A stretch of DNA of 46,316 nt from an uncultured bacterium (GCA_913046815.1 CAJWTE010000001.1:1-46316); one strand, 5' to 3'; shown: positions 7,890-40,118, counted from the first letter of the stretch. Program-made: numbers and translations. Notes: generated from the sequence alone by a model not told the origin.

Positions 7890-7973
7890 GCTCAGGTGGC
7901 GGAATTGGTAGACGCGCATCCTTGAGGGGGATGTGTCCGTATGGACGTGCTGGTTCAACTCCAGTCCTGAGCA
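7890..7973 (+). tRNA. tRNA-Leu (anticodon GAG), long variable arm, no encoded CCA
   Basis: GCTCAGG...GGCGGAATTGGTAGACGCG, anticodon stem-loop CATCC-TTGAGGG-GGATG, variable arm TGTCCGTATGGACG, T arm GCTGG-TTCAACT-CCAGT. Confidence 0.9.
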
Positions 7974-8087
7974 CACTTTTCAAGTTCATTTTTGGTGTCC
8001 TGGTAGTTTTTTGTATTGAAAAAGTGAGTTTTGAGAGTACCATTAGTTTAATGGTTCTTAAGTTCATTCTAGAAATGGGAGGTCAAA

Positions 8088-28935: not shown

Positions 28936-29104
28936 GTCTTAATACCATAGGATAACCCTATGGAAGTTGCTTTTTTTATAAAATGTGTTATTGTCACGAA
29001 CAAGTTCGCAATGGGCGAACTGTTTTTGAACCAATGGGGGTAAAAATAAGTGCAATACGGAATGAAAAGCAAACCGTTCACCCGCAGTGCTACCAAAAAG
29101 TACT

Positions 29105-29302
29105 GCAAAGGAATGCGCGGCCGGTCTCAAGGTCCCCGCGACCAAGCGACCACGCACCGGAAGGTAGAGGTGGTTGAAAAAACCAAGGGGCAACGACCCC
29201 GTATAAGGACGATCCTCGTCCCCACATGAGGCAAAGAGCAGGGCGGCGCAACGGCGCCTCCCCGCACACCCGCAACGCACGTCGCTAAGACGGGCGTTTT
29301 TT
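29105..29302 (+). promoter_or_regulatory. GC-rich multi-hairpin leader ending in an intrinsic terminator 26 nt before the argS start
   Basis: Hairpins: ACCAC..ACC-GGAA-GGU..GUGGU, GGGG-caacga-CCCC, GGACGA-tcc-TCGTCC, GGCGC-aacg-GCGCC. Terminator: cgcacgtc-gctaa-gacgggcg + tttttt at 29276-29302. Confidence 0.35.
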
Positions 29303-29327
29303 GTTGCTTTTTGGTATAGTAGCCACA

Positions 29328-31013
29328 ATGAAAGACACGCTGAAAAATGTTGTCAACAATGCGCTAAAGAGCCTGGAGCTGCCCGTGGAAGACTTTGTAA
29401 TTGAGCATCCGGCTCTTATGTCACATGGGGACTATGCTACCAACGTAGCTTTAGTAGTTGCTAAAGAAGTTGGTCAGAATCCGCGTGAATTGGCCGAAAA
29501 GATAATGAAAGAAGTGGTTTTGCAGGATCTTCCGGAAATCAACCAAGTTTCCATTGCCGGTCCTGGCTTTATCAACTTCACCCTCAGTCGTACTTTCTTT
29601 ACCAAGCAAATCAAGCTGATTAATACCATTGATGGTGAATGGGGGAAGAATGGCGCTTATTTAGGGAAGAAAGTATTGGTGGAGTACACCGACCCTAATC
29701 CATTTAAGGAGTTTCATATCGGTCACATGTTTACCAATATTGTAGGTGAGAGCCTATCTCGCTTATTTGTTATGGCCGGAGCAGATGTGAAGCGTCTTAA
29801 CTATCAAGGTGATGTGGGTATGCATGTTGCTTCAGCGATATGGGGAATGCAGCAAATGGGGCTAACGGCAGATAGTCAGTTTGGTCCCCGTGAGTTGGGG
29901 GAGGCATATGCTAAGGGTGCAACGGCGGCTAAGAACAATGAATCAGCCAAGCAAGATATAACGACCTTGAATAAAAAAATTTACGATCGGTCTGATGAGG
30001 CAGTCAATCAACTGTATGATAAAGGCCGAGCGGTTTCATTGGAATATTTTGAGGATATGTACGCTATCTTAGGTACTAAATTTGACCATTACTTTTTTGA
30101 GAGTGAGGCCGGTCCCAAGGGGCAAGATTTAGTTTTGGCGCATCCTGAAGTATTTGTAGATAGCGATGGTGCTAAGATATTTCCCGGTGAGCAACATGGT
30201 CTACACACTAGAGTATTTATAAACCGTGAAGGGTTGCCCACTTACGAAGCTAAAGAGTTGGCGTTGGCCGAAATGAAAGAAGACGAGTGTGGCACCCACG
30301 ACTTGTCTGTCGTTTCTACCGCCAACGAAATTAATGAGTATTTCAAAGTGCTTTTGAAAGCAATGAGTCTGATTCATCCTGATTTAGCCCAGAAGACTGA
30401 GCATATCGGACACGGTATGGTGCGATTAACTTCTGGCAAGATGTCGTCACGCACTGGTGATGTAATTCCGGCGCGGGACTTTATCGATAGTATCAAACTC
30501 GTCGCTTTAAATAAGGTAGAGGAATCAGGCAGGGAAGTGGATGAGCAAACAGCAAAAATGGTCGCAATGGGTGCTATCAAGTATGAAACTCTCAGAGGCA
30601 GCATTTTCCAGGATTCAGTGTTTGACGAAGGAAACGCACTATCTTTTGAAGGCAACTCTGGTCCGTATTTGCAGTATACCTATGCTCGAATTCAGTCAGT
30701 AAAAGAAAAGGCTGAGAAGGAGGGTGTCGCTACTGGTTTAGAAGTGATACCAAAGGATATTTATGATGTAGAAAGAGTCTTGTACCGTTTCCCAGAAGTA
30801 GTGGAAGAAGCCCTTGTAGATAGATCACCCCACAAAGTCGCAGTGTTTCTCACTGAGCTTGCCAGTGAGTTTAATGCTTTTTATTCTCATGAGAAGATAG
30901 CAGATGTTGGGGATGAATTGGCTTCATACAAACTAGCTCTTTCTGATGCAGTAGCCGAGACCTTAAAAACTGGTCTGTGGATACTTGGCATCGACGCCCC
31001 GGAAAGAATGTAG
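29328..31013 (+). CDS. argS: Arginyl-tRNA synthetase
   Basis: SHGDYATNVAL, VEYTDPNPFKEFHIGH (HIGH), GKMSSRTG (KMSK). Confidence 0.9.
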   Translation: MKDTLKNVVNNALKSLELPVEDFVIEHPALMSHGDYATNVALVVAKEVGQNPRELAEKIMKEVVLQDLPEINQVSIAGPGFINFTLSRTFFTKQIKLINTIDGEWGKNGAYLGKKVLVEYTDPNPFKEFHIGHMFTNIVGESLSRLFVMAGADVKRLNYQGDVGMHVASAIWGMQQMGLTADSQFGPRELGEAYAKGATAAKNNESAKQDITTLNKKIYDRSDEAVNQLYDKGRAVSLEYFEDMYAILGTKFDHYFFESEAGPKGQDLVLAHPEVFVDSDGAKIFPGEQHGLHTRVFINREGLPTYEAKELALAEMKEDECGTHDLSVVSTANEINEYFKVLLKAMSLIHPDLAQKTEHIGHGMVRLTSGKMSSRTGDVIPARDFIDSIKLVALNKVEESGREVDEQTAKMVAMGAIKYETLRGSIFQDSVFDEGNALSFEGNSGPYLQYTYARIQSVKEKAEKEGVATGLEVIPKDIYDVERVLYRFPEVVEEALVDRSPHKVAVFLTELASEFNAFYSHEKIADVGDELASYKLALSDAVAETLKTGLWILGIDAPERM

Positions 31014-31080
31014 GTCGGTTTGTAAATTCACCTATTTTGACTTAGTATGCTTATACGTGTCTGATATACACGTATTTATT

Positions 31081-34000
31081 ATGTCTGATATACATAACCA
31101 TAATATGACAAACAAAAATAAAGAAACAGTGTTAGAAGCTAAAAATGACGAGCAGAAGTCAGAAGTAGCTTTACGCGAAGAGGCGATGCTCACCTTTTGG
31201 AAAGAGCATGATATTTTTAATAAATCAGTAGAAAAGGAAGCGCCTAACGGCGGTTTTGTTTTTTATGATGGCCCTCCATTTGCTACCGGTTTACCTCATT
31301 ACGGTCATATTCTCGCTAGTACCATCAAAGACGCAATCCCGCGTTTTTGGACTATGAATGGCTATCGCGTGGAGCGCAAATGGGGCTGGGATTGTCATGG
31401 ATTGCCTCTAGAAAACTTGATTGAGAAGCGACTTGGCTTAGCCACAAAAAGAGATATTGAGGAATATGGGGTAAAAAATTTCAATGAAGCTGCACGCAGT
31501 ACGGTAATGGAATATGCTGATGACTGGAAGCAAATAATTCCGCGTATGGGACGTTGGGCGGATATGAACAGCGACTACAAGACAATGGATAGTACCTACA
31601 CCGAGAGTGTATGGTGGGTATTTAAGTCTTTGCATGACAAAGGTTTGGTATACGAAGGCTTCAAATCTATGCACTTGTGTCCACGTTGTGGTACGACCCT
31701 TTCAAACTTCGAGGTCAACCAAGGTTACCAAGATATAAAAGATATCGCTGTAACAGTGAAGCTGCCTTTGCTAGATGAGCAAGGAGAAAAGACAGACACA
31801 TCACTCTTAGTCTGGACCACCACTCCATGGACACTACCCGGTAACATGGCTGCAGCAGTGCATAACGATCACGACTATGTCAAAGTAACGGTCGGTGTCG
31901 AGGATATGTCCGGTACTTATATATTGGCCAAGGACAGATTGAGTCAGTTGGGTACAGATGAGTACGAAGTGGTTGAAGAGATAAAGGGATCTTTGTTAGT
32001 AGGTTTGCGTTACGAGCCACCATTCTCTTACTTCCAAGACCGAGACTTTGAAAATAAAAAGAACGCCTGGAAGGTTTACCATGCCGACTACGTTGAGTTG
32101 GGAGAAGAAGGTACAGGAGCCGTACACTTGGCTCCTGCCTATGGTGACGAAGACATGGAATTGGCAAAAGAACAGGGAATACCGCTAGTGCACCATGTTG
32201 ACGAGAGTGGACGTTTCAGGGATTTTGTGACTGACTTTGCTGGGCAACTAGTTAAGCCAAAGGATGACGATGAAGCTGGTATTTTGCACTTGGATACTGA
32301 TATTGAGATTGTTAAAGCTCTTAAGGAAAGTGGCAAGCTGCTGCGCAAAGAAAATATCACCCATAGTTACCCTCATTGTTGGCGTTGTGACACCCCGCTT
32401 CTAAATTATGCAACTACCTCTTGGTTTGTGCGAGTGACTGACATCAAAGACGAGTTGGTGGCTGAGAATAATAAAATCCATTGGGTACCAGAACATGTCG
32501 GCAAAAATCGTTTTGGTAAATGGTTGGAAGGAGCTAGAGACTGGGCTGTTAGTCGCCAGCGTTACTGGGGAGCCCCTTTGCCAATCTGGCGTAATCCCGA
32601 GACTAAAGAGCATAAAGTTTTCGGTTCTTTGGACGAACTGAAGCAGTATATACCCAACAGTGACAACCGGTATCTGGTCATGCGACATGGTGAAAGTGAA
32701 AAGAACGTAGCTCAGATAGTCACGGATGACTACGACGCACCATATCCACTTACTGAACAAGGTAGGGAGACTGTCAGAAAGTCAGCTAGGAATCTAAAAG
32801 GAAAAATTGACTTAATTATTACCTCACCGGTTTTGCGAGCCAAAGAAACAGCTGGTTTGGTGGCGGAAGAAGTCGGTCTGAGTAGTGACCAAGTAGTAGT
32901 AGATGAAAGGATTCGTGAGACAAATCATGGTGAATATGAAGGTAAGCCACTGGTTGAGTATCAAAAAGCTTATCCAAGCGGTTTGTCAAAGTTTGTAGAC
33001 AGGCCGGAAGGAGGAGAGAGCTGGTCAGACATTAGGAAACGAATGGGTGAGTTTCTCTACTCACTAGAGAAAGACTATCAAAACAAAAACGTTTTGATTA
33101 TTTCTCATGGTGATCCTTTGTCACTCTTGAATTTTGTGGCTATGGGTTCAAGTAATGAATATATTGTTAGAGAATGGAATGCGCTGTATCCGGAAGAGAA
33201 AGGGGTTGCTAAAGAACTCCAGTTCACACCTCTGCCACACAATGACGACTATGTACTCGACTTTCATCGACCATATATTGATGAGGTTGAGTTGTATGAA
33301 GATGAGGTAAGGCTGGAACGGGTACTAGACGTGTTTGACTGTTGGTTTGAGAGTGGGTCTATGCCTTATGGTCAGCACCACTACCCGTTTGAGAATGAGA
33401 AAGAGTTTGAAAAGAATCTTTTTCCAGCCAACTTTATCGCAGAGGGACTTGATCAGACTCGAGGTTGGTTCTATTCGCTCATTGTGCTCAGTACGGCGTT
33501 ATTCGGCAAGTCGTCCTACCAGAATGTAATAGTGAACGGCCTTATTATGGCTGAGGATGGCAAGAAACTTAGTAAGAAACTACAGAACTACTCTGAGCCA
33601 ACAAAGTTTGCCAACGAAGTGGGAGCAGATTCCATACGTCATTACCTTTTATCATCTTCCATCGTACGCGGGGAAGACCTAAATTTCTCCGATCAGGCTG
33701 TACGGGAGTTACAACGCAAGAACATCGGTCGCTTACACAATGTTCTACAAATGTATCAGATGTACGTTGGTAGCATCGAACCGCACAATGCTTCAGACAA
33801 GATATTGGATCGTTGGATACTAAGCCGACTCGGAGAACTGATAGCCGAGTCTACTACCGGTTACAAAAATTATGAACTAGATAAAGCTACTAGACCGATA
33901 ACAGATTTTATTGATGATCTTTCTGTTTGGTACTTGCGTCGTAGTCGTGACCGCTTGAAAGGTACTGATACTGATGACAAGGAATTGGCAGTAGCTACTT

Positions 34001-34632
34001 TGGGCTATGTGCTGAAGAATTTGGCTTTAGTAATGGCTCCGGTGATGCCATTTTATTCAGAATATCTATGGCAGGAGATTAGAAGAGATGAAGATGTGCA
34101 GAGTGTTCATTTGGCGAGTTGGCCAGAGGGTGAAAAGACAGATGAAGAGTTGATAGAAAACATGAAAGTACTACGAGAGCTAGTCACGTCAGCTTTAGAG
34201 GTTCGTGCCAAGGCCAATATCAAAGTTCGTCAACCACTAGCAACGTTATTCCTCAAGGAGGATGCGATAGTCTCACAGGAAGCCGAGCTGGCCGCACTTG
34301 TACTAGAAGAAGTTAATGTTAAAAAGCTACAGCAAAATGCTTCAATGGTAGAGGATGTTTCCTTAGATATCAATATTACTCCGGAACTAAAAACGGAAGG
34401 GGATGTGCGCGAATTAATTCGCGCGGTACAAGATATGCGCAAGGAATCTGGCTTGAAGGCTGATGATAATATCAAATTGGTCATAGCAACCGACGAAGTC
34501 GGACAAAAGACAGTGGATGCTCATATGGACATGCTGGCTCACGTGGTAGGAGCAGAGACTGTTTCTTACGGAGAAGTCTCCGATGGAAGAGAAGTAACAA
34601 TAGGAGACACTATTTACAAAATTTCCTTTTAG
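31081..34632 (+). CDS. ileS: Isoleucyl-tRNA synthetase (eukaryote-like type 2) with an inserted histidine-phosphatase domain
   Basis: PPFATGLPHYGHIL (HIGH), WDCHGLP, KLSKKL (KMSKS variant), DVFDCWFESGSMPYG. The start is uncertain (31081 or 31105). Confidence 0.9.
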   Translation: MSDIHNHNMTNKNKETVLEAKNDEQKSEVALREEAMLTFWKEHDIFNKSVEKEAPNGGFVFYDGPPFATGLPHYGHILASTIKDAIPRFWTMNGYRVERKWGWDCHGLPLENLIEKRLGLATKRDIEEYGVKNFNEAARSTVMEYADDWKQIIPRMGRWADMNSDYKTMDSTYTESVWWVFKSLHDKGLVYEGFKSMHLCPRCGTTLSNFEVNQGYQDIKDIAVTVKLPLLDEQGEKTDTSLLVWTTTPWTLPGNMAAAVHNDHDYVKVTVGVEDMSGTYILAKDRLSQLGTDEYEVVEEIKGSLLVGLRYEPPFSYFQDRDFENKKNAWKVYHADYVELGEEGTGAVHLAPAYGDEDMELAKEQGIPLVHHVDESGRFRDFVTDFAGQLVKPKDDDEAGILHLDTDIEIVKALKESGKLLRKENITHSYPHCWRCDTPLLNYATTSWFVRVTDIKDELVAENNKIHWVPEHVGKNRFGKWLEGARDWAVSRQRYWGAPLPIWRNPETKEHKVFGSLDELKQYIPNSDNRYLVMRHGESEKNVAQIVTDDYDAPYPLTEQGRETVRKSARNLKGKIDLIITSPVLRAKETAGLVAEEVGLSSDQVVVDERIRETNHGEYEGKPLVEYQKAYPSGLSKFVDRPEGGESWSDIRKRMGEFLYSLEKDYQNKNVLIISHGDPLSLLNFVAMGSSNEYIVREWNALYPEEKGVAKELQFTPLPHNDDYVLDFHRPYIDEVELYEDEVRLERVLDVFDCWFESGSMPYGQHHYPFENEKEFEKNLFPANFIAEGLDQTRGWFYSLIVLSTALFGKSSYQNVIVNGLIMAEDGKKLSKKLQNYSEPTKFANEVGADSIRHYLLSSSIVRGEDLNFSDQAVRELQRKNIGRLHNVLQMYQMYVGSIEPHNASDKILDRWILSRLGELIAESTTGYKNYELDKATRPITDFIDDLSVWYLRRSRDRLKGTDTDDKELAVATLGYVLKNLALVMAPVMPFYSEYLWQEIRRDEDVQSVHLASWPEGEKTDEELIENMKVLRELVTSALEVRAKANIKVRQPLATLFLKEDAIVSQEAELAALVLEEVNVKKLQQNASMVEDVSLDINITPELKTEGDVRELIRAVQDMRKESGLKADDNIKLVIATDEVGQKTVDAHMDMLAHVVGAETVSYGEVSDGREVTIGDTIYKISF

Positions 34633-34635
34633 ATC

Positions 34636-35202
34636 ATGAGCTACAAAACATACACAACAAACGCGTTGGTATGTGGTAGCTTTGCTAATAACACTTCGGA
34701 CAAATATTTTCTTCTTCTCACTGAGTCGGCAGGAATGATTATGGCCACTGCTCGTAGTGTAAGGGAAGAAAAAAGCAAACAACGCTTTGCTTTGCAAGAT
34801 TTTTCTTTGATTAAAGTGTCCTTGGTTCAAGGTAAGACTGGTTGGAGAATTGGCAGTGTGGAAGCTAGTCGCAACTATTATCTTGAAGCTAGTACTCGAG
34901 ATTCTAGAGTAGTGGTTACAGAAGCGGTTCGCTTACTGAGGAGATTATTGCAAGGTGAGGAGGTAGACAGTACGGTCTTTGTTGAGACCACCACCGCTCT
35001 AGATATTATGGTGACAAAAGACAGTTCTATCAAAAATCTAATTGATATATTTACCTTGCGAGTATTGTATCGACTCGGCTATGTAGCTCATAGTGAGGTG
35101 GTTGAATTGTGGTTGAATGATGATTCATACATAAGCGCACCACCTTTAAGCAAAGCAGCTAGAAAGGTCATAGACAAAGGTTTGAATGCCAGTCACTTAT
35201 AA
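34636..35202 (+). CDS. recO: RecO-like recombination mediator (short, no zinc finger)
   Basis: N-terminal OB-fold pattern (ALVCGS...DKYFLLLTESAGMIMATARSVR..K.....LQDFSLIKV) and FTLRVLYRLGY. Confidence 0.55.
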   Translation: MSYKTYTTNALVCGSFANNTSDKYFLLLTESAGMIMATARSVREEKSKQRFALQDFSLIKVSLVQGKTGWRIGSVEASRNYYLEASTRDSRVVVTEAVRLLRRLLQGEEVDSTVFVETTTALDIMVTKDSSIKNLIDIFTLRVLYRLGYVAHSEVVELWLNDDSYISAPPLSKAARKVIDKGLNASHL

Positions 35203-35219
35203 GCTGTTATAATTCATGT

Positions 35220-37136
35220 ATGTCTGAGATTGGAAAACAAGAAAAGTTGGAAGATGTAAAAAACCGTCTTTACGAAAGGGGGGCGAAACAAACAGAACGT
35301 ATTAGACAAATATTGCCCAACGAGGAGAAAAAAGTGCCAAGTGAATGGATCAATCCACCTTCACCCAAACCCCAGTCAACATTTGTCGCAAAAGAAGATC
35401 AACAGACTAATTTTGAAACAGATATGCCAAAAAGTCGGAAGAAAAAGTATCGAATAAAAATATTATTGGCCGGATTATTATTTTTTGTTGTTGCCTTGCT
35501 GGTTTCGTCCGCACTTTTGTTTCTTGGTAACAATGTTATTTCTGGTGACAATATTGATCTCAGTGTCAGTGGACCATTCACTATCGGTGGAGGGGAAGAG
35601 ATGTTAATACAAATTGGTATACAAAATTCCAATCGGGTGCCAATAGAGTCGGCTACATTAATAGTAGAGTATCCAAGAGGCACCAAATCTGCTGACGAAG
35701 AAAACAGAGATTTATTTATTGAACGTACCCCTTTGTCCAAGATAGATGTAGGCGAAAGCATAAGTGTACCCCAGTCAGCTATTGTTTATGGTGAAGAAAA
35801 CACCGAACAAATCATAAAAGTCTCAATTGAGTACCGTGTAGAAGGTTCCAATGCACTGTTCTTTAAAGAGGTTGATGCACTGCGCTATAAAATCAGTTCA
35901 GCGCCAGTAGTAGCTATGGTAGAAGCAGTCGATAGGGTATCAGTCGGTCAAGAGGCCACGGTTATTGTAAAGGTGGCGTCTAATTCCGGTGAAACAGTTA
36001 GAAATATCTTGGTGAGAGCTGATTATCCTAATCAGTGGGATTTCACCGCAGCGTCACCTGATACTTATGCTGGAAATAACGTGTGGTTGATTGATAGTCT
36101 GGAACCGGAAGAAGTTTATGAGATAGAAGTCACAGGACTAGTAGTGGGGCATGTGAGCGAGGAAGCCAACATGTTGTTTGAGGTAGGGGTACCTGATAGC
36201 GATGATGATACGCGCATAGGTTCTATTTTTAGTAGCGCAGAAGTTGTCTGGGAAGTAGAGAGCTCGTTTTTAGAAGTGTCACTTGATATCGACGCAGATT
36301 CAAACGGTATCAAGGTCGTCGAAAGCGAAGAGTCAGTGAGTGGGCAGATAGTCTTACAAAACAACTCAAACGATACAGTTTATGATATGGAAGTGACCTT
36401 AAATCTTGGAGGCAGCGCTTTTTCTGACACTTCTGTTTACAGCACCGATGGTTTCTTTGATTCTAATACCAACTCAATAGTGTGGGGTAGTGCCTCTGAT
36501 AGTGGTTTACGTGAGTTTGAGCCGGGTGACAAGGCCAGGTTCAGCTTCTCGCTTTTGCCGAACGAAGCTGTCACTGTTACTCCCGAGATTACTCTAGCAG
36601 TAGACGTAAAAGCTAAGAGAGTTAGTGACTCCCGTGTCCCAGAGAGTCTCCGTTCAGAGGCTAGTGGCAAGATAAGGGTATCTGGTTATCCGGACATACT
36701 GGCAGAGGCAAGTCATTCTTCTGGTCCTTTGCCTCCCAGGGTAGGTCTTGAGACTGTTTATCGTATCTCTTTTATGATTGATAATCGTTACAATAACTTG
36801 GATGATGCTGTAGTGGTGGCTGTTCTGCCGCAAAATATAACATGGCAAGACATAACCGGTGGAGTTGGTAATTTTTCATACAACCCATCAGATCGTGTAG
36901 TCACGTGGAATGCAGGAGACGTACGTAGTGGGCAGAGACCCATTGGTACTTTTGATATTGCGTTACTGCCAAGCTCTTCTAATATTGGTGACACACCAAT
37001 ACTGGTACGCGAACAAAGACTGAAGGCCGACGATGGATTTACCGGCACTGTAGTTAGAGCTTTAAACTCATTTATAACCGCAGAACTTTCTACCGAAACT
37101 GGCGAAGAGTCCGGGAATGGGCGTGTTGTAGAATAA
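35220..37136 (+). CDS. Hypothetical membrane-anchored protein with a large beta-rich ectodomain
   Basis: A basic N-terminus, one TM segment (ILLAGLLFFVVALLVSSALLFL), then a ~530-aa repetitive beta-strand-like sequence. Confidence 0.5.
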   Translation: MSEIGKQEKLEDVKNRLYERGAKQTERIRQILPNEEKKVPSEWINPPSPKPQSTFVAKEDQQTNFETDMPKSRKKKYRIKILLAGLLFFVVALLVSSALLFLGNNVISGDNIDLSVSGPFTIGGGEEMLIQIGIQNSNRVPIESATLIVEYPRGTKSADEENRDLFIERTPLSKIDVGESISVPQSAIVYGEENTEQIIKVSIEYRVEGSNALFFKEVDALRYKISSAPVVAMVEAVDRVSVGQEATVIVKVASNSGETVRNILVRADYPNQWDFTAASPDTYAGNNVWLIDSLEPEEVYEIEVTGLVVGHVSEEANMLFEVGVPDSDDDTRIGSIFSSAEVVWEVESSFLEVSLDIDADSNGIKVVESEESVSGQIVLQNNSNDTVYDMEVTLNLGGSAFSDTSVYSTDGFFDSNTNSIVWGSASDSGLREFEPGDKARFSFSLLPNEAVTVTPEITLAVDVKAKRVSDSRVPESLRSEASGKIRVSGYPDILAEASHSSGPLPPRVGLETVYRISFMIDNRYNNLDDAVVVAVLPQNITWQDITGGVGNFSYNPSDRVVTWNAGDVRSGQRPIGTFDIALLPSSSNIGDTPILVREQRLKADDGFTGTVVRALNSFITAELSTETGEESGNGRVVE

Positions 37137-37159
37137 GCTTGCTGTGCTAGAGTAGTTTC

Positions 37160-38551
37160 ATGTTCGATAATGCTAATAAGCTAGAAAAAATTACTTCACT
37201 GGCCAAAAGGCGAGGTTTTGTCTTTTCTGGCAGTGATATTTACGGTGGTTTTGTCGGGTCTTATGACTACGGCCCATATGGAGTGGAGCTTGCGAATAAC
37301 ATCAAGAAGACTTGGTGGAAAAGAATAGTGAATGAAGAGGTCAATATCGTAGGTCTAGACTCGGCCATTGTGACTCATCCCAAAGTTTGGGAAGCATCGG
37401 GGCATGTAGACGGATTTTCTGACCCTCTGGTGGAGTGTAAGGAGTGTAATACTCGTTCAAGGGCAGACCATCTTTTGGAAGAGATTGGAGTTGAGGCGGA
37501 CGAAAAAATGTCCGTTGTGGATTTGAACGCGCTTTTTAGTAAAAATAAAGGTGATATTAAATGTCCTAAGTGTGGTCAGTCGAACTTTGGTCAAGTATCC
37601 AATTTCAATCTTTTAGTAAAGACCAACCTAGGCAATTTCTCTGATGACTGGGCAGGAGAGCCGGCTTATTTGCGTGGAGAAACTTGTCAGGGTATTTATA
37701 TAAACTTTAAGAACGTACTCGATACGACCAGAGTGAAGGTTCCTTTTGGAATCGCTCAAATAGGCAAAGCTTTTCGCAACGAAATTGCTCCCCGCCAGTA
37801 CATTTTCCGCAAACGCGAGTTTGAACAAATGGAGATGCAGATGTTTGTAACTCCAGAGAGTGAGATGGATACTTATGAAGACTGGAAGAAGAAGCGTTGG
37901 CAGTTTTATTTAGACTTAGGTTTCAAAGAAGAGAACATCCGCTGGCAAAATCATAAGAACTTAGTGTTTTATGCAAGAGCAGCTACTGATATAGAGTATA
38001 ATTTTCCATTTGGTTTTAAGGAACTTGAAGGAGTGCACGCTCGAGGCGATTACGACCTAACGGCTCACCAAGAAGCGACAGGAGTCTCTCTGGAGTACCT
38101 AGATCCGACCACCAACGAGAAGTATATCCCACATGTTGTAGAAGCTTCTGTCGGCGTAGATCGAACTTTCTTGGCTGTTCTAACAGAGTTTTATGATGAA
38201 GATGAGTTGGGAGGTGAGACTCGCACAGTGATGCGTTTTCCGCGCGAGTTGGCACCAATTAAAGTGGCAGTCTTTCCGCTCTTGCGCAACAAACCAGAGT
38301 TGGTAGAGAAGGCCAAGGAAGTATTTACAATAGTTTCCAAGCACATGCGGGCCGAGTTTGATGACAATGGCAACGTCGGCAAACGCTATCGCCGCCAAGA
38401 TGAAATCGGTACACCTCACTGCGTGACTATCGACTTTGACACTTTAGGCGAAAACCCCGAACACCTGGACACTGTCACTGTTCGTGACCGTGACACCGGT
38501 GAACAGGAGAGGGTAAAGATTGAAGGGTTGGTAGAGTATTTGCAAGGTTAG
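37160..38551 (+). CDS. glyQS: Glycyl-tRNA synthetase (alpha2 type)
   Basis: RRGFVFSGSDIYGG, LRGETCQGIY, GKAFRNEIAPR, GVDR, RYRRQDEIGTP. Confidence 0.9.
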   Translation: MFDNANKLEKITSLAKRRGFVFSGSDIYGGFVGSYDYGPYGVELANNIKKTWWKRIVNEEVNIVGLDSAIVTHPKVWEASGHVDGFSDPLVECKECNTRSRADHLLEEIGVEADEKMSVVDLNALFSKNKGDIKCPKCGQSNFGQVSNFNLLVKTNLGNFSDDWAGEPAYLRGETCQGIYINFKNVLDTTRVKVPFGIAQIGKAFRNEIAPRQYIFRKREFEQMEMQMFVTPESEMDTYEDWKKKRWQFYLDLGFKEENIRWQNHKNLVFYARAATDIEYNFPFGFKELEGVHARGDYDLTAHQEATGVSLEYLDPTTNEKYIPHVVEASVGVDRTFLAVLTEFYDEDELGGETRTVMRFPRELAPIKVAVFPLLRNKPELVEKAKEVFTIVSKHMRAEFDDNGNVGKRYRRQDEIGTPHCVTIDFDTLGENPEHLDTVTVRDRDTGEQERVKIEGLVEYLQG

Positions 38552-38684
38552 AAGCAAGCCAGAAAAGCATTCTAAAAACACGAATCAAGTTCTCTACTCA
38601 GACTCTATCAAGTCTTCCGTAAGGTTTTCATAACGCTTTTCTGGCTTGCTTAGTGTTCCAATAAAACGTAAAGTATTAACTACC

Positions 38685-40118
38685 ATGACAGACAAGCAAG
38701 CTTGTTATATCACCACTACACTTCCGTATGTGAACGCAAAACCACATATTGGTTTTGCTGCAGAAATTACTCGAGCGGATACCTTTGCGCGTTATCAGAA
38801 ACTTATGGGAAAAGTGGTATTTTTTAATACCGGCACTGATGAACACGGACAAAAAATTTATGACAATGCTGTTGAGGCAGGTCAAACACCACAAGAATAT
38901 GTGGACAAATTTGCTGCGGAATTCAAAGGTCTTATTCCTGCGCTTGGTATTAGTGAGGACATACATTTTATTCGTACTACTGATGCCCATCACAAAGAAG
39001 CAGCTCAAGAAATGTGGAGGCGTTGTAATAATAATGGTGATATATATAAGGCAACACAAACGATCAGATATTGTGTTGGGTGTGAACTAGAAAAAACAGA
39101 TTCAGAGTTGGAAGAGGGGAAGTGCCCACTGCATCCTAATAAAGACCTCGAGGTGCGCGAAGAGGAGAATTATTTCTTCCGATTTTCTAAGTATCAAGAA
39201 CCTCTACTTGAGTTATATAGAGAGAAATCCAACTTCGTGATTCCTGCTTTTCGTCAAAAAGAGATACAGTTATTTGTCGAGGACGGACTCCAAGACTTCT
39301 CAGTGTCTCGTCTCAAATCGAAAATGCCATGGGGAGTACCTGTGCCGAACGACGACGACCATGTAATGTTTGTTTGGTTTGATGCATTAACTAACTACAT
39401 ATCCACGACCGGCTGGCCGGAAGAGGAGAACTTTGGTGGGTGGTGGCCAGGTATACAATTCGCTGGCAAGGATAATTTAAGACAACAAACAGCTATCTGG
39501 CAAGCGATGCTCATGTCTGCAAATTTACCAACATCTCAAACGGTTATGATTGGCGGTTTTATAAATAGCGGGGGACAGAAGATGAGTAAAAGCCTCGGTA
39601 ACGTTATTGATCCATTTGAAGTGAAAGAACGCTACGGTTTGGAGGCTATGCGTTATTTCCTTCTTCGGCACGTACATCCATTTGAGGACACAGATGTTAC
39701 TTGGGAAAAAATGGACGAGTGGTACACAGCTAACTTAGTCAATGGTCTTGGTAACTTGACGGCACGTATTATGAAAATGGCTGAGACGCATCTCGACAAA
39801 CCAATAGAGAAGCCGGGGAGAATCGAATTTCCAACTGAATACACAAATGCCCTAGATGAATTTAACTTTCAAGGTGCTTGTGACCATATCTGGAGAAGAG
39901 TAGGGGAACTGGACGAGAAAATCACCACTACTGAACCTTTCAAACTAGTCAAAGAAGATCCAGAGAAAGCCAAGGAAATTATCAAGGAATTGGCAGAAGA
40001 GCTTTATTTTACCGCCAGACTCTTGTACCCAATCATGCCCCAGACCAACAAAGTAATAAAAGAGGCAGTTCTAGAAAACAAAAAACCCGCCAATCTCTTC
40101 AACCGCCTACCAGAATAA
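38685..40118 (+). CDS. metG: Methionyl-tRNA synthetase (short form)
   Basis: YITTTLPYVNAKPHIGFA, VWFDALTNY, KMSKSLGN. Confidence 0.9.
   Translation: MTDKQACYITTTLPYVNAKPHIGFAAEITRADTFARYQKLMGKVVFFNTGTDEHGQKIYDNAVEAGQTPQEYVDKFAAEFKGLIPALGISEDIHFIRTTDAHHKEAAQEMWRRCNNNGDIYKATQTIRYCVGCELEKTDSELEEGKCPLHPNKDLEVREEENYFFRFSKYQEPLLELYREKSNFVIPAFRQKEIQLFVEDGLQDFSVSRLKSKMPWGVPVPNDDDHVMFVWFDALTNYISTTGWPEEENFGGWWPGIQFAGKDNLRQQTAIWQAMLMSANLPTSQTVMIGGFINSGGQKMSKSLGNVIDPFEVKERYGLEAMRYFLLRHVHPFEDTDVTWEKMDEWYTANLVNGLGNLTARIMKMAETHLDKPIEKPGRIEFPTEYTNALDEFNFQGACDHIWRRVGELDEKITTTEPFKLVKEDPEKAKEIIKELAEELYFTARLLYPIMPQTNKVIKEAVLENKKPANLFNRLPE

What the first reader, a model, noticed from the sequence alone, without database searches (positions are those of the whole stretch)
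32650..33245. Apparently intact histidine-phosphatase (PGM-like) domain inserted inside isoleucyl-tRNA synthetase
Type-2 IleRS sequences normally run ...PIW...G(S/T)..EL...DLHR..ID...DVFDCWFESGS with only a short linker. Here about 190 aa (roughly residues 530-720, counted from the ATG at 31081) are inserted between ...FGSLDELKQYIPNSDN and DDYVLDFHRPYIDE.

The insert carries every catalytic signature of histidine-phosphatase superfamily branch 1:
- LVMRHGESEKN (Arg-His nucleophile)
- SPVLRAKETA (second Arg)
- RETNHGEYEG (Glu donor)
- IISHGDPL (second His)

The IleRS motifs on both sides are in frame and intact, so this is a domain insertion and not a fusion of neighbouring genes. I know of no described aaRS with an embedded phosphatase domain. 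It could act on nucleotide by-products (Ap4A or pppGpp-type), on phosphorylated tRNA ends, or on an inhibitor.
Basis: partly seen in the sequence, partly recalled or inferred. Interest (0 to 1): 0.75.

Follow-up and report, generated by a model that had tools for sequence, protein, structure and literature searches.

The report
Phosphatase domain nested inside isoleucyl-tRNA synthetase
This candidate-phyla-radiation bacterium, like a large group of its relatives, carries an apparently active histidine-phosphatase domain inside its essential isoleucyl-tRNA synthetase, and in other relatives the same phosphatase is a separate gene directly upstream of that synthetase gene, which points to an undescribed partner enzyme for tRNA-Ile charging.

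Summary

- **The gene.** One ORF (31081-34632, 1183 aa) encodes an intact type-2 IleRS. About 200 residues (aa 524-724, nt 32650-33252) replace a linker that is 6 aa long in yeast and human IleRS.
- **The insert.** It scores E=6e-34 against Pfam His_Phos_1. The catalytic set R535/H536, R586, E613 and H676 is present.
- **Distribution.** All 120 best homologue clusters (62-78% identity, independent assemblies, named Paceibacterota/Patescibacteria where named) share the architecture. In 102 embedded copies from 50%-identity representatives, both Arg and the nucleophilic His are kept in 102/102.
- **Free-standing form.** A ~190-aa phosphatase of the same family lies immediately upstream of an insert-free ileS in 10 of 10 loci examined. 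The surrounding gene order (argS, ileS, recO) matches the window.
- **Other nested forms.** Other relatives carry the domain at three or more further IleRS sites, or as 2-4 copies.

My best reading is a small-molecule-type phosphomonoesterase that is a dedicated IleRS partner, either nested or operon-encoded. Its substrate is unknown. No paper describing it was found.

Verdict: a new variant of a known kind, interest about 0.7.

The parts
31081..34632 (+). ileS gene: 1183-aa type-2 isoleucyl-tRNA synthetase with a nested phosphatase domain (stop codon included)
   Evidence: ORF list. TIGR00392 scores 875.8 bits against a 621.4 cut-off. Identical over its full length to public protein P0001. 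AF2 model: mean pLDDT 84, pTM 0.72. The best Foldseek hits are IleRS2 structures 8c8v and 8wnd.
31081..32649 (+). IleRS N-terminal part (aa 1-523): first half of the Rossmann fold, CP1 editing domain, CP2, and the first half of the CP3 hairpin
   Evidence: Pfam tRNA-synt_1 covers aa 36-524. This part aligns to yeast IleRS residues 13-490. Mean identity to 119 homologues is 0.79.
31297..31308 (+). HIGH signature motif (HYGH, aa 73-76)
   Evidence: Translation check. H73, G75 and H76 are invariant in alignment A1.
31813..31845 (+). Editing-domain motif WTTTPWTLPGN (aa 245-255). The companion motif GTGAVHLAPAYGDED lies at nt 32110-32154.
   Evidence: Translation check. The residues are invariant in A1. 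That these are the class Ia editing-site motifs is from my own knowledge.
32650..33252 (+). The whole insertion relative to canonical IleRS (aa 524-724): a short N-linker, the phosphatase domain, and the conserved C-linker TPLPHNDDY
   Evidence: The gap in the alignments to yeast and human IleRS lies between query residues 522 and 725, and also against insert-free relatives. The spacing from PxW to RHG is 34 residues in 77 of 77 homologues in which the landmarks could be located.
32665..33225 (+). Histidine-phosphatase (His_Phos_1) domain core, N529-F715. It equals the full length of the free-standing relatives.
   Evidence: Pfam PF00300, E=5.8e-34. AF2 model of the insert alone: pLDDT 91, pTM 0.88. 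Foldseek TM about 0.7 to GpgP, PspA, PhoE and CobC. Aligns end to end with the 190-aa free-standing proteins.
32683..32691 (+). RHG motif: R535 and the nucleophilic H536
   Evidence: Translation check. Invariant in A1. R and H are kept in 102/102 embedded copies and 47/47 copies without detectable IleRS flanks.
32836..32838 (+). R586, the second phosphate-binding arginine (motif SPVLR)
   Evidence: Kept in 102/102 embedded copies. Invariant in A1.
32917..32919 (+). E613, the putative general acid (motif RETNHG)
   Evidence: E in 98 and D in 4 of 102 embedded copies. Invariant in A1. It aligns with the acid position of PspA and PhoE.
33106..33108 (+). H676, the second catalytic histidine (motif ISHG)
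   Evidence: Kept in 101/102 embedded copies. Invariant in A1.
33253..34629 (+). IleRS C-terminal part (aa 725-1183): second half of the CP3 hairpin, second half of the Rossmann fold, KMSKS loop, anticodon-binding domain and type-2 C-terminal domain
   Evidence: Pfam Anticodon_1 at aa 910-1053 and DUF5915 at aa 1091-1182. Aligns to yeast IleRS from residue 497 onward.
33565..33579 (+). KMSKS-type motif (KLSKK, aa 829-833)
   Evidence: Translation check. K829, S831 and K832 are invariant in A1.
29301..31013 (+). argS (arginyl-tRNA synthetase), the upstream syntenic neighbour. No free-standing phosphatase gene lies between it and ileS here (67-nt gap).
   Evidence: Pfam Arg_tRNA_synt_N, tRNA-synt_1d and DALR_1. 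The same gene order is seen in loci L001-L017.
34636..35202 (+). recO-like gene, the downstream syntenic neighbour
   Evidence: Pfam RecO_N. Conserved downstream of ileS in both operon-type and nested-type loci.

Best explanation
**What it is.** The window encodes a bifunctional enzyme. It is a working type-2 IleRS whose CP3 hairpin carries a complete, catalytically competent histidine phosphatase. That hairpin is a CxxC...CxxC zinc knuckle in relatives and lies just before the second half of the Rossmann fold. The phosphatase belongs to the short, capped, small-molecule type (like PhoE, PspA, GpgP and CobC).

**Why I call it a partner of IleRS.** The phosphatase is not a random passenger. It belongs to a Parcubacteria-specific family that is always tied to IleRS in one of three forms:
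- a separate gene abutting the start of ileS;
- a domain nested in IleRS, as here;
- several nested copies.

In the loci where it could be judged, each ileS had the phosphatase either upstream or nested, not both. I therefore read it as a dedicated IleRS accessory subunit.

**Proposed mechanism.**
- Shown: IleRS retains all the motifs needed to charge tRNA-Ile. The phosphatase retains the R-H...R...E...H machinery for a phospho-histidine mechanism.
- Inferred: the phosphatase is held on, or made in fixed proportion with, IleRS. It hydrolyses a phosphomonoester on a small ligand connected with the IleRS reaction, most plausibly a nucleotide-type by-product or a competitor or inhibitor of the synthetic site.
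- Unknown: the substrate.

**How it arose (inferred).** By relocation between the upstream gene position and permissive surface loops of IleRS. This happened at least twice.
For: **The domain is real and looks catalytically competent.**
- Pfam and NCBIfam hits.
- AF2 pLDDT is above 90 across the domain, both in the full-length model and in the model of the insert alone.
- The nearest solved folds are all small-molecule phosphatases or mutases.
- Catalytic residues are invariant in 119 close homologues and in 102 embedded copies from 50%-identity clusters. Yet the domain as a whole is the fastest-evolving part of the protein: 0.44 mean identity, against 0.79 and 0.60 for the IleRS halves.

**IleRS is intact.** TIGR00392 scores above its cut-off, and the HIGH, KMSKS-type and editing motifs are present.

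**It is not an artefact.** The architecture is found in all 120 best clusters, from independent sources, and in named Kaiserbacteria and Paceibacterota genomes.

**Evidence for a partnership with IleRS.**
- 10 of 10 free-standing family members examined lie 4 nt overlapping to 20 nt upstream of ileS, with one at 118 nt. The eight downstream ileS genes that could be read in full (946-1011 aa) have no insert; two others are cut by contig ends. The argS-ileS-recO gene order matches the window.
- The nested-type loci L001-L004 and the window have no upstream phosphatase gene.
- The linked ileS genes fall into three divergent lineages that are 33-45% identical to one another.
- Phosphatase identity and IleRS identity are uncorrelated among seven operon loci (Spearman 0.08), while adjacency is kept.
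- Nested copies occur at four or more sites and as tandem arrays, and every copy keeps the catalytic residues.
- Every multidomain protein among the 150 best representatives is an IleRS.
- No simple N-terminal fusion was seen, although the upstream stop and the ileS start are only 1-3 nt apart in five loci.
- Linker lengths are fixed.
Against: - **No activity or substrate has been measured.** Nothing here shows that the phosphatase touches any IleRS ligand.
- **No distances.** I could not obtain model coordinates, so the distance and orientation between the H536 pocket and the synthetic site, editing site or tRNA-binding site are unknown.
- **Insertion sites argue against channelling.** They are scattered: CP2/CP3, the alpha3-beta4 loop (which by Rossmann topology should face away from the active site), and the anticodon-binding domain. 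That fits 'any permissive loop will do' better than precise substrate channelling.
- **A neutral route exists.** Because the free-standing gene sits next to ileS, local rearrangement alone could explain why IleRS is always the host.
- **Synteny is a weak argument here.** Housekeeping gene order in these small genomes is conserved for many functionally unrelated genes.
- **A metabolic explanation is open.** Jaffe et al. 2020 (PMC7304191) report that phosphoglycerate mutase appears to be missing in several Parcubacteria clades. The best NCBIfam hit of the insert is an archaeal short dPGM model, although far below its cut-off. A purely metabolic role is therefore not excluded.
Confidence: 0.55

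Rival explanations
1. Hitch-hiking housekeeping enzyme. The phosphatase does an unrelated metabolic job. It could be the phosphoglycerate mutase that seems to be missing in some Parcubacteria, or a general sugar-phosphate, phosphoserine or nucleotide phosphatase. Under this reading it is linked to ileS only because the two genes have long shared a conserved housekeeping operon. Local rearrangements then dropped it into loops of the neighbouring gene that tolerate insertions.
For: - The best NCBIfam hit is dPGM_arch (110 bits), and the monomeric S. pombe PGM 1fzt is among the top folds.
- PGM is reported absent from several shallow Parcubacteria clades (PMC7304191).
- The insertion sites are scattered rather than focused on one functional surface.
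- The same IleRS loops also accept other domains: a GNAT and a REP-associated tyrosine-transposase-like domain in P0185.
- The surrounding gene order is generally conserved.
Against: - All curated functional models score far below their cut-offs: dPGM_arch 110 against 225, pgm_1 28.5 against 81.7, CobC 74 against 163, PspA 64 against 350.
- The stretch after RHGESxxN lacks the FTGW.D-type motif of dPGMs. This is read from the sequence; the motif itself is from my own knowledge.
- The domain evolves much faster than IleRS (about 38-42% against 70-75% identity in L001-L004), which is unusual for a central glycolytic enzyme.
- Arrays of 2-4 copies are hard to explain for a glycolytic step.
- Adjacency is kept across three IleRS lineages despite discordant phosphatase and IleRS similarity.
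- No other fusion partner and no simple N-terminal fusion was seen.
Confidence: 0.25
2. Macromolecule-directed repair phosphatase. Under this reading the domain removes a phosphate from IleRS itself (for example from the serine of the KLSKK motif after attack by a HipA-like toxin kinase). Alternatively it removes a phosphate from a 2'/3'-phosphorylated or pyrophosphorylated tRNA-Ile 3' end, and so restores charging.
For: - The link to IleRS is strict.
- Fast sequence turnover with a fixed catalytic core, together with copy-number expansion, resembles a conflict-driven module.
- S831 of KLSKK is invariant.
- From my own knowledge: HipA and HipT phosphorylate the KMSKS-region serine of GltX and TrpS; toxSAS enzymes pyrophosphorylate tRNA CCA ends; and some members of this superfamily (SixA, PGAM5, Sts-1) are protein phosphatases.
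Against: - No protein phosphatase of the superfamily appears among the 50 best fold matches.
- SixA scores 35 bits against a 74.5 cut-off.
- The domain keeps a roughly 40-residue cap (aa 608-647), as in small-molecule enzymes.
- No PADLOC defence model matches.
- The gene is core and syntenic rather than patchy.
- No kinase or toxin gene was seen beside it in 17 loci.
Confidence: 0.1
3. Sensor or structural module. Under this reading the domain binds a phosphorylated metabolite and tunes IleRS allosterically, or it merely replaces the lost zinc knuckle as a structural brace. Catalysis would be irrelevant.
For: - In the window's lineage the four zinc-knuckle cysteines flanking the site are gone.
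- The linkers are short and of fixed length, so movements of the domain could be transmitted to the Rossmann fold.
Against: - The full catalytic set, including the general acid, is kept in 98-102 of 102 copies, which binding alone would not require.
- Many insert-bearing IleRS still have the CxxC...CxxC knuckle, so the domain is not a replacement for it.
- Free-standing orthologues, which cannot act as an in-chain brace, are equally conserved.
Confidence: 0.05
4. Assembly or annotation artefact: a chimeric contig, or a frameshift that hides two genes.
For: None found. Read-level data were not available.
Against: - There is one open frame with no stop codon.
- The identical protein is seen on 4 contigs.
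- The same architecture occurs in 120 of 120 best clusters and in about 100 of the 150 representatives, from many projects.
- The junction residues N529, P719 and N721 are invariant.
Confidence: 0.01

Closest known systems
Type-2 (eukaryote/archaeon-like) isoleucyl-tRNA synthetase, e.g. Priestia megaterium IleRS2 (PDB 8C8U/8C8V) and yeast IleRS (8WND)
   Same: The whole IleRS body is shared: HIGH and KMSKS-type motifs, CP1 editing domain, anticodon-binding domain and the type-2 C-terminal domain (PF19302). phmmer gives E=6e-213 to yeast IleRS, and Foldseek gives E=1.5e-70 to 8c8v.
   Different: About 200 extra residues form an independent enzyme domain where these structures have a linker of about 6 residues. 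The window's lineage has also lost the zinc-knuckle cysteines that flank that linker in related IleRS.
Short small-molecule histidine phosphatases of branch 1: PhoE (1H2E), phosphoserine phosphatase PspA (4IJ5), glucosyl-3-phosphoglycerate phosphatase GpgP (4PZ9), alpha-ribazole phosphatase CobC
   Same: The fold (TM about 0.7), the size (about 190-210 aa), the cap sub-domain and the catalytic residues R-H, R, E and H are shared.
   Different: Identity is only 20-28%. The insert is below every curated NCBIfam cut-off. It is nested in, or operon-linked to, an aaRS. The region after RHGESxxN is unlike these families. The substrate is unknown.
NCBIfam NF040702, 'isoleucine--tRNA ligase, N-acetyltransferase domain-containing'
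   Same: It is a curated precedent for an IleRS that carries an extra enzyme domain. One relative found here (P0185) has both a histidine phosphatase and a GNAT domain inside IleRS.
   Different: The window protein has no GNAT domain and scores 308 bits against a 1999-bit cut-off. The inserted enzyme is from a different superfamily.
CP1 editing domain of class Ia synthetases (a nested hydrolytic domain)
   Same: It is a hydrolase domain inserted into the connective-peptide region of the Rossmann fold and inherited as part of the synthetase. It is cited as the textbook nested domain of aaRS (PMC13114784).
   Different: CP1 is universal in IleRS, ValRS and LeuRS and acts on mischarged tRNA. The phosphatase insert is clade-specific, comes from an unrelated superfamily, also exists as a separate gene, and has no known substrate.
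Mycobacterium tuberculosis Rv2228c-type bifunctional RNase H / acid phosphatase (NCBIfam NF005567)
   Same: It is a branch-1 histidine phosphatase joined to a nucleic-acid enzyme, and it is the second-best NCBIfam hit of the insert (96.5 bits).
   Different: It is an end-to-end fusion, not a nested one. The partner is RNase H. The score is far below the 326-bit cut-off.

Membership tests
Histidine phosphatase superfamily, branch 1 (Pfam PF00300) | Profile match above the curated gathering score | tested here: met
   117.9 bits for the insert alone and 113 bits within the full protein, against a gathering score of 21.7.
Histidine phosphatase superfamily, branch 1 (Pfam PF00300) | RHG motif with the nucleophilic His, two further phosphate-pocket residues (Arg, His) and an acidic proton donor | tested here: met
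   R535-H536-G537, R586, H676 and E613 are present. They are invariant in 119 homologues, and each is kept in 98-102 of 102 embedded copies. They align with the catalytic positions of PspA and PhoE.
Histidine phosphatase superfamily, branch 1 (Pfam PF00300) | The alpha/beta fold of the superfamily | tested here: met
   AF2 model with pLDDT 91 and pTM 0.88. Foldseek E=7e-13, TM 0.69-0.74 to 4pz9, 4ij5 and 1h2e.
Histidine phosphatase superfamily, branch 1 (Pfam PF00300) | Phosphatase or mutase activity through a phospho-histidine intermediate | not testable with these tools
   This needs an enzyme assay with an H536A control.
Cofactor-dependent phosphoglycerate mutase (dPGM) | Score above the curated equivalog or subfamily cut-offs | tested here: not met
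   dPGM_arch NF038349: 110.4 bits against 225. pgm_1 TIGR01258: 28.5 against 81.7. All GpmA/GpmB models are far below their cut-offs. The free-standing relatives are also below.
Cofactor-dependent phosphoglycerate mutase (dPGM) | dPGM-specific substrate-binding motif after the RHG loop (RHGxSxWNxxNxFTGWxD) | tested here: not met
   The sequence reads RHGESEKNVAQIVTDDYDAPYPL, with no FTGW.D. The motif is recalled from my own knowledge and not taken from a tool, so this is weak evidence.
Protein/phospho-histidine phosphatases of the superfamily (SixA, Sts, PGAM5) | Sequence or fold closest to these members | tested here: not met
   SixA TIGR00249 scores 35.3 bits against 74.5 and covers only the first 70 residues. 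None of these proteins is among the 50 best Foldseek matches.
Isoleucyl-tRNA synthetase, type 2 | ileS equivalog model above its cut-off | tested here: met
   TIGR00392 scores 875.8 bits against 621.4, in two stretches split by the insert.
Isoleucyl-tRNA synthetase, type 2 | Class I signature motifs and the CP1 editing motifs | tested here: met
   HYGH 73-76, KLSKK 829-833, WTTTPWTLPGN 245-255 and GTGAVHLAPAYGDED 344-358 are present and conserved in A1.
Isoleucyl-tRNA synthetase, type 2 | Type-2 C-terminal organisation, and closer to IleRS2/eukaryotic IleRS than to IleRS1 | tested here: met
   PF19302 scores 65.9 bits. phmmer gives E=6e-213 to yeast IleRS and 8e-200 to P. megaterium IleRS2, against 7e-92 and 9e-85 to IleRS1 structures.
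Isoleucyl-tRNA synthetase, type 2 | Isoleucylation of tRNA-Ile | not testable with these tools
   Inferred only from the intact motifs. No second ileS was seen in the 46-kb window.
NCBIfam NF040702 (IleRS with GNAT domain) and mupirocin-resistance IleRS MupA/MupB | Score above the curated cut-off | tested here: not met
   NF040702 scores 307.8 against 1999, MupA 680 against 1900 and MupB 683 against 1900. Pfam finds no acetyltransferase domain.
Known anti-phage defence systems (PADLOC-DB) | Match to any defence-system protein model | tested here: not met
   No hits for the insert, the whole protein or two free-standing relatives at E<=0.01.

The most novel reading that the evidence does not exclude
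Parcubacteria may possess a previously unknown accessory enzyme for isoleucylation. This would be an IleRS-dedicated histidine phosphatase, nested or operon-encoded, that must remove a phosphate before or during tRNA-Ile charging. The phosphate could sit on tRNA-Ile, on IleRS itself, or on a synthetic-site ligand or inhibitor. If so, there is an extra chemical step or a built-in antidote in aminoacylation that has no counterpart in model organisms.
Probability: 0.3. Interest if true: 0.9.

Novelty: new variant of a known kind. Interest (0 to 1): 0.7.

Why it matters
Aminoacyl-tRNA synthetases are among the best-studied enzymes. Their nested domains (CP1 editing, zinc knuckles) are textbook cases of functional coupling.

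Here a second, unrelated hydrolase is nested in the catalytic region of IleRS. Three findings raise its significance:
- it is conserved across a very large uncultivated bacterial clade;
- in relatives it is replaced by a separate gene abutting the start of ileS;
- it has been re-inserted at several sites and amplified to as many as four copies.

This pattern implies selection for keeping a phosphatase physically or stoichiometrically tied to IleRS. Working out the substrate could have three kinds of pay-off:
- It could reveal a new quality-control, repair or resistance step in translation.
- If the metabolic rival is right instead, it could fill the reported phosphoglycerate-mutase gap in Parcubacteria metabolism (PMC7304191).
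- It offers a natural example of genes moving between an operon arrangement and a nested-domain arrangement.

There is also a practical warning. These proteins are currently annotated simply as isoleucine--tRNA ligase or 'class I tRNA ligase family protein', and some free-standing phosphatases are mislabelled as isoleucyl-tRNA synthetase.

Tried and rejected
**Artefact (chimeric contig or frameshift).** Rejected. There is one open frame, and the same architecture appears in 120 of 120 best clusters and about 100 of 150 representatives from many sources.

**Membership in a named phosphatase or mutase family** (dPGM, CobC, PspA, SixA, GpmB, acid phosphatase). Rejected. All scores are far below the curated cut-offs.

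**Defence-system component.** No PADLOC hit.

**Placing the phosphatase pocket relative to the IleRS active sites.** Not possible. Structure prediction returned confidence values and secondary structure but no coordinates, and nothing was written to /data. The full-length Foldseek search returned only IleRS, ValRS and LeuRS.

**Taxonomic survey through genome contigs.** The taxonomic range therefore rests on source names.

**Literature.** Seven full-text searches and five papers read yielded no description of an IleRS-phosphatase architecture or of a phosphatase-ileS operon.

**Testing the 'missing PGM' rival.** I could not check whole genomes for a canonical PGM. Only about 10 kb around a given gene can be fetched.

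**Phylogeny.** Only a neighbour-joining tree without support values was made. The number and direction of operon/nested transitions is therefore provisional.

**Rfam on the window.** It gave only two tRNAs and nothing related to ileS.


Full report
**1. Checking the observation**

The + strand carries one uninterrupted ORF, 30985..34632. Starting from the ATG at 31081 it encodes 1183 aa. This is identical over its full length to a public protein annotated as 'isoleucine--tRNA ligase [bacterium]', which was seen on four contigs, the longest of 46,316 bp (P0001).

The IleRS part:
- NCBIfam's ileS equivalog model is passed (TIGR00392, 875.8 bits against 621.4), but in two stretches.
- Pfam shows tRNA-synt_1 split into two stretches, plus Anticodon_1 and the type-2 C-terminal domain DUF5915.

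The insert: between the two tRNA-synt_1 halves Pfam finds His_Phos_1 at aa 532-691 (E=1.8e-32).

The size of the insertion: in phmmer alignments to solved yeast and human IleRS, query residue 522 pairs with chain residue 490, and query 725 with chain 497 (yeast) or 496 (human). So about 200 residues replace about six.

**2. Not an artefact, and under selection**

All 120 best homologue clusters (62-78% identity) carry PF00300 together with the IleRS domains. They come from NCBI, JGI, ENA, Logan and Tara. Where named, they are called Paceibacterota, Pacebacteria or Patescibacteria, with one assigned to 'Azotimanducaceae'. A scan of species-representative genomes found the same nested gene in two Kaiserbacteria MAGs, one Paceibacterota MAG and one MAG labelled Saccharibacteria.

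In an alignment of 119 of these proteins, the invariant residues inside the insert are N529, R535, H536, N542, T558, G561, S582, R586, E613, E646, R654 and H676. That set includes the full catalytic set of branch-1 histidine phosphatases.

The insert is nevertheless the most divergent part of the protein. Its mean identity to the window sequence is 0.44, against 0.79 for the N-terminal IleRS part and 0.60 for the C-terminal part.

An exhaustive HMMER search with the insert against 1.84 billion 50%-identity representatives gave 33 hits below 1e-30. Of the best 150, about 100 have IleRS sequence on one or both sides. In 102 embedded domain copies:
- R535, H536 and R586 are kept in 102/102;
- H676 is kept in 101/102;
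- the acid position is E in 98 and D in 4.

The junctions are also constrained. The spacing from PxW to RHG is 34 residues in 77 of 77 close homologues in which the landmarks could be located, and the C-side linker TPLPHND is conserved.

**3. What kind of phosphatase**

No curated NCBIfam functional model is reached:

| Model | Score (bits) | Cut-off (bits) |
|---|---|---|
| dPGM_arch | 110 | 225 |
| RNase H/acid phosphatase | 96 | 326 |
| CobC | 74 | 163 |
| PspA | 64 | 350 |
| SixA | 35 | 74.5 |

The same holds for the free-standing relatives.

An AF2 model of the insert, built with 104 free-standing relatives as its alignment, is confident (pLDDT 91, pTM 0.88). Its best PDB fold matches are all small-molecule enzymes of about 200 aa, at TM about 0.7 and 20-28% identity. 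They include GpgP Rv2419c, PspA, a riboflavin-pathway phosphatase, PhoE, CobC, TIGAR and the monomeric S. pombe PGM. No SixA, Sts or PGAM5-type protein phosphatase is in the top 50.

The domain keeps a roughly 40-residue cap between the third strand and the long helix.

I therefore assign it as a capped, small-molecule-type phosphomonoesterase (or mutase) from an unnamed subfamily.

**4. Where it sits in IleRS**

Insert-free relatives have CxxC, then 8-13 residues, then HRPxxD...CxxC at this place. Many insert-bearing IleRS keep both cysteine pairs on either side of the phosphatase, but the window's lineage has lost them. The site is therefore the tip of a zinc-knuckle hairpin.

Two lines of inference place this hairpin in the protein:
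- P. megaterium IleRS2 aligns up to residue 477 before the site, while its second Rossmann half is given as residues 513-632 (PMC10485003).
- Yeast IleRS is described as having a CP core, CP1, CP2 and CP3 (PMC11685878).

From these I place the site in the last connective peptide (CP3), just before helix alpha3. This is an inference.

In the full-length AF2 model (pLDDT 84, pTM 0.72) the region 510-730 has pLDDT above 90. No coordinates were returned, so I could not measure how the phosphatase pocket faces the synthetic or editing sites.

**5. The key new finding: the same phosphatase is the gene next to ileS in relatives**

The representative search also returned complete proteins of 190-204 aa. 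A profile of six of them finds at least 120 further clusters of 184-232 aa that carry only PF00300. One is named from 'Parcubacteria bacterium DG_74_3', and JGI even labels a few of them 'isoleucyl-tRNA synthetase'.

I looked up the genomic place of ten of them. In all ten, the gene immediately downstream on the same strand is ileS.
- The gaps are -4, 1, 1, 1, 1, 2, 3, 10, 20 and 118 nt.
- Eight of the downstream ileS genes could be read in full. They are insert-free, at 946-1011 aa.
- The other two are cut by contig ends.

The neighbourhood is the same as in the window: argS, (phosphatase), ileS, recO, a DUF11/CLIPPER-like protein, then a class II aaRS.

Conversely, the nested-type loci L001-L004 and the window have no upstream phosphatase gene. 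In every locus where it could be judged, the phosphatase was either upstream or nested, not both.

**6. Depth and dynamics of the association**

The ileS genes that have an upstream phosphatase belong to three divergent lineages, which are 33-45% identical to each other:
- one with GVHH and EMHKSKG motifs;
- one with GIHH and KMSKS;
- one with HYGH, like the window.

In a neighbour-joining tree of IleRS cores, two operon-type sequences (L007, L009) fall inside a GxHH clade that is otherwise insert-bearing. The window belongs to a separate HYGH clade that is insert-bearing. That implies at least two switches between the operon and nested states. The tree is crude and has no support values.

Among seven operon loci, phosphatase identity and IleRS identity are uncorrelated (Spearman 0.08). 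For example, L005 against L007 is 63% for the phosphatase and 45% for IleRS, whereas L005 against L012 is 40% and 63%. So the two partners have partly separate histories while staying adjacent. With n=7 this is only suggestive.

Some IleRS carry the domain elsewhere. Positions below are in window numbering and approximate to about 10 aa:
- near aa 453-463;
- near aa 765-781 (the alpha3-beta4 loop);
- near aa 895-904 (the start of the anticodon-binding domain);
- as 2-4 copies in one protein.

Every copy keeps the catalytic residues.

Every multidomain protein among the 150 best hits is an IleRS. No simple N-terminal fusion was seen, although the upstream stop and the ileS start are 1-3 nt apart in five loci.

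**7. Interpretation**

Shown:
- a real, inherited, nested domain;
- intact IleRS motifs;
- an intact and strongly conserved phosphatase catalytic core;
- strict genomic linkage of this phosphatase family to ileS, in operon or nested form.

Inferred: the phosphatase is a dedicated partner of IleRS and acts on a small phosphomonoester connected with the IleRS reaction.

The strongest arguments for functional coupling:
- the either/or pattern of upstream and nested copies;
- its persistence across three IleRS lineages;
- the repeated re-insertion and amplification.

The strongest arguments against:
- The insertion sites are scattered. One of them should, by Rossmann topology, face away from the active site. 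This fits 'any permissive loop' better than substrate channelling.
- Proximity of the source gene could by itself explain why IleRS is always the host.
- Other domains (a GNAT, and a REP-associated tyrosine-transposase-like domain) also occur inside IleRS in one relative.

The main rival is an unrelated housekeeping enzyme. One concrete candidate is the phosphoglycerate mutase that Jaffe et al. found missing in several shallow Parcubacteria clades (PMC7304191). Points against that rival:
- the scores are far below cut-off;
- the dPGM motif after the RHG loop is absent;
- the domain evolves fast (about 40% identity where the IleRS N-terminal part is 70-75%);
- multi-copy arrays exist.

A protein- or tRNA-directed repair phosphatase is possible but not favoured by the fold comparison. 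No defence-system model matches.

**8. Novelty**

Full-text searches found nothing. The term pairs tried were:
- IleRS with histidine phosphatase or phosphoglycerate mutase;
- aaRS with Patescibacteria or domain insertion;
- IleRS with acetyltransferase domain or CPR;
- histidine phosphatase with Patescibacteria.

Three relevant papers contain no mention of a phosphatase:
- a 2026 preprint that annotated the domain architecture of 96,219 IleRS sequences from GTDB;
- the 2023 IleRS2 structure paper;
- a 2026 survey of domain insertions.

The nearest curated precedent is NCBIfam NF040702, an IleRS with a GNAT domain. The sequences themselves are public but are annotated only as IleRS or 'class I tRNA ligase family protein'.

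I rate this as a new variant of a known kind, with interest about 0.7. The architecture, its distribution and the operon/nested duality are solid. The function is open.

Noticed in passing
loci L005-L014 (ileS at e.g. L005:6590-9460, L007:6591-9440): The insert-free IleRS that follow a free-standing phosphatase gene have GVHH or GIHH in place of the HxGH signature motif. This is the swapped GXHH motif that Brkic et al. 2023 (PMC10485003) link to mupirocin hyper-resistance in IleRS2. One lineage also has EMHKSKG instead of KMSKS. The window's IleRS has the canonical HYGH.
   Followed up: partly
protein P0185 (50%-identity representative, 1066 aa; not in the window): One relative's IleRS carries three foreign domains in frame. 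A REP-associated tyrosine-transposase-like domain lies inside the editing-domain region (aa 326-472; NF047646 at 81.3 bits against an 80-bit cut-off). A histidine phosphatase sits at the usual site. A GNAT acetyltransferase lies near aa 935-1063. IleRS of these bacteria seems unusually tolerant of nested domains.
   Followed up: partly
window 32581-32619 and 33286-33324: The two CxxC pairs of the zinc knuckle that flank the insertion site in relatives have been replaced in the window's lineage by PIWRNPETKEHKV and VELYEDEVRLERV. The hairpin that carries the phosphatase probably no longer binds zinc.
   Followed up: yes
window 28936-29300: There is a 365-nt intergenic stretch upstream of argS with G+C of 0.54-0.56, against about 0.43 around it. 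It folds better than shuffled controls on both strands (z -4.2 and -3.7). It has no Rfam match (only a spurious miRNA hit nearby at E=0.07), and ARAGORN finds no tmRNA. It may be a divergent structured RNA gene.
   Followed up: partly
window 29301-40118: Four aminoacyl-tRNA synthetase genes lie within 11 kb on one strand: argS, ileS, a class II synthetase (tRNA-synt_2b plus HGTP_anticodon) and metS. They are interrupted only by recO and a DUF11 surface-type protein. The order is conserved in relatives (L001, L003).
   Followed up: partly
window 30985-31081: The ileS reading frame is open from a TTG at 30985, which would overlap the end of argS (31013). The ATG at 31081 matches the deposited 1183-aa protein and the N-termini of homologues, so it is the likely start.
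   Followed up: yes
window 7890-7974: ARAGORN calls a tRNA-Leu(GAG) here. The Rfam tRNA model did not report it at the gathering threshold. It overlaps mechanically listed ORFs on both strands.
   Followed up: no
locus L015 (477-1091 and 1210-2565): The free-standing phosphatase most similar to the window's insert (P0144) sits 118 nt upstream of an HYGH-type ileS that is 60% identical to the window's. The contig ends before the insertion site, so it is unknown whether that IleRS also carries a nested copy.
   Followed up: partly
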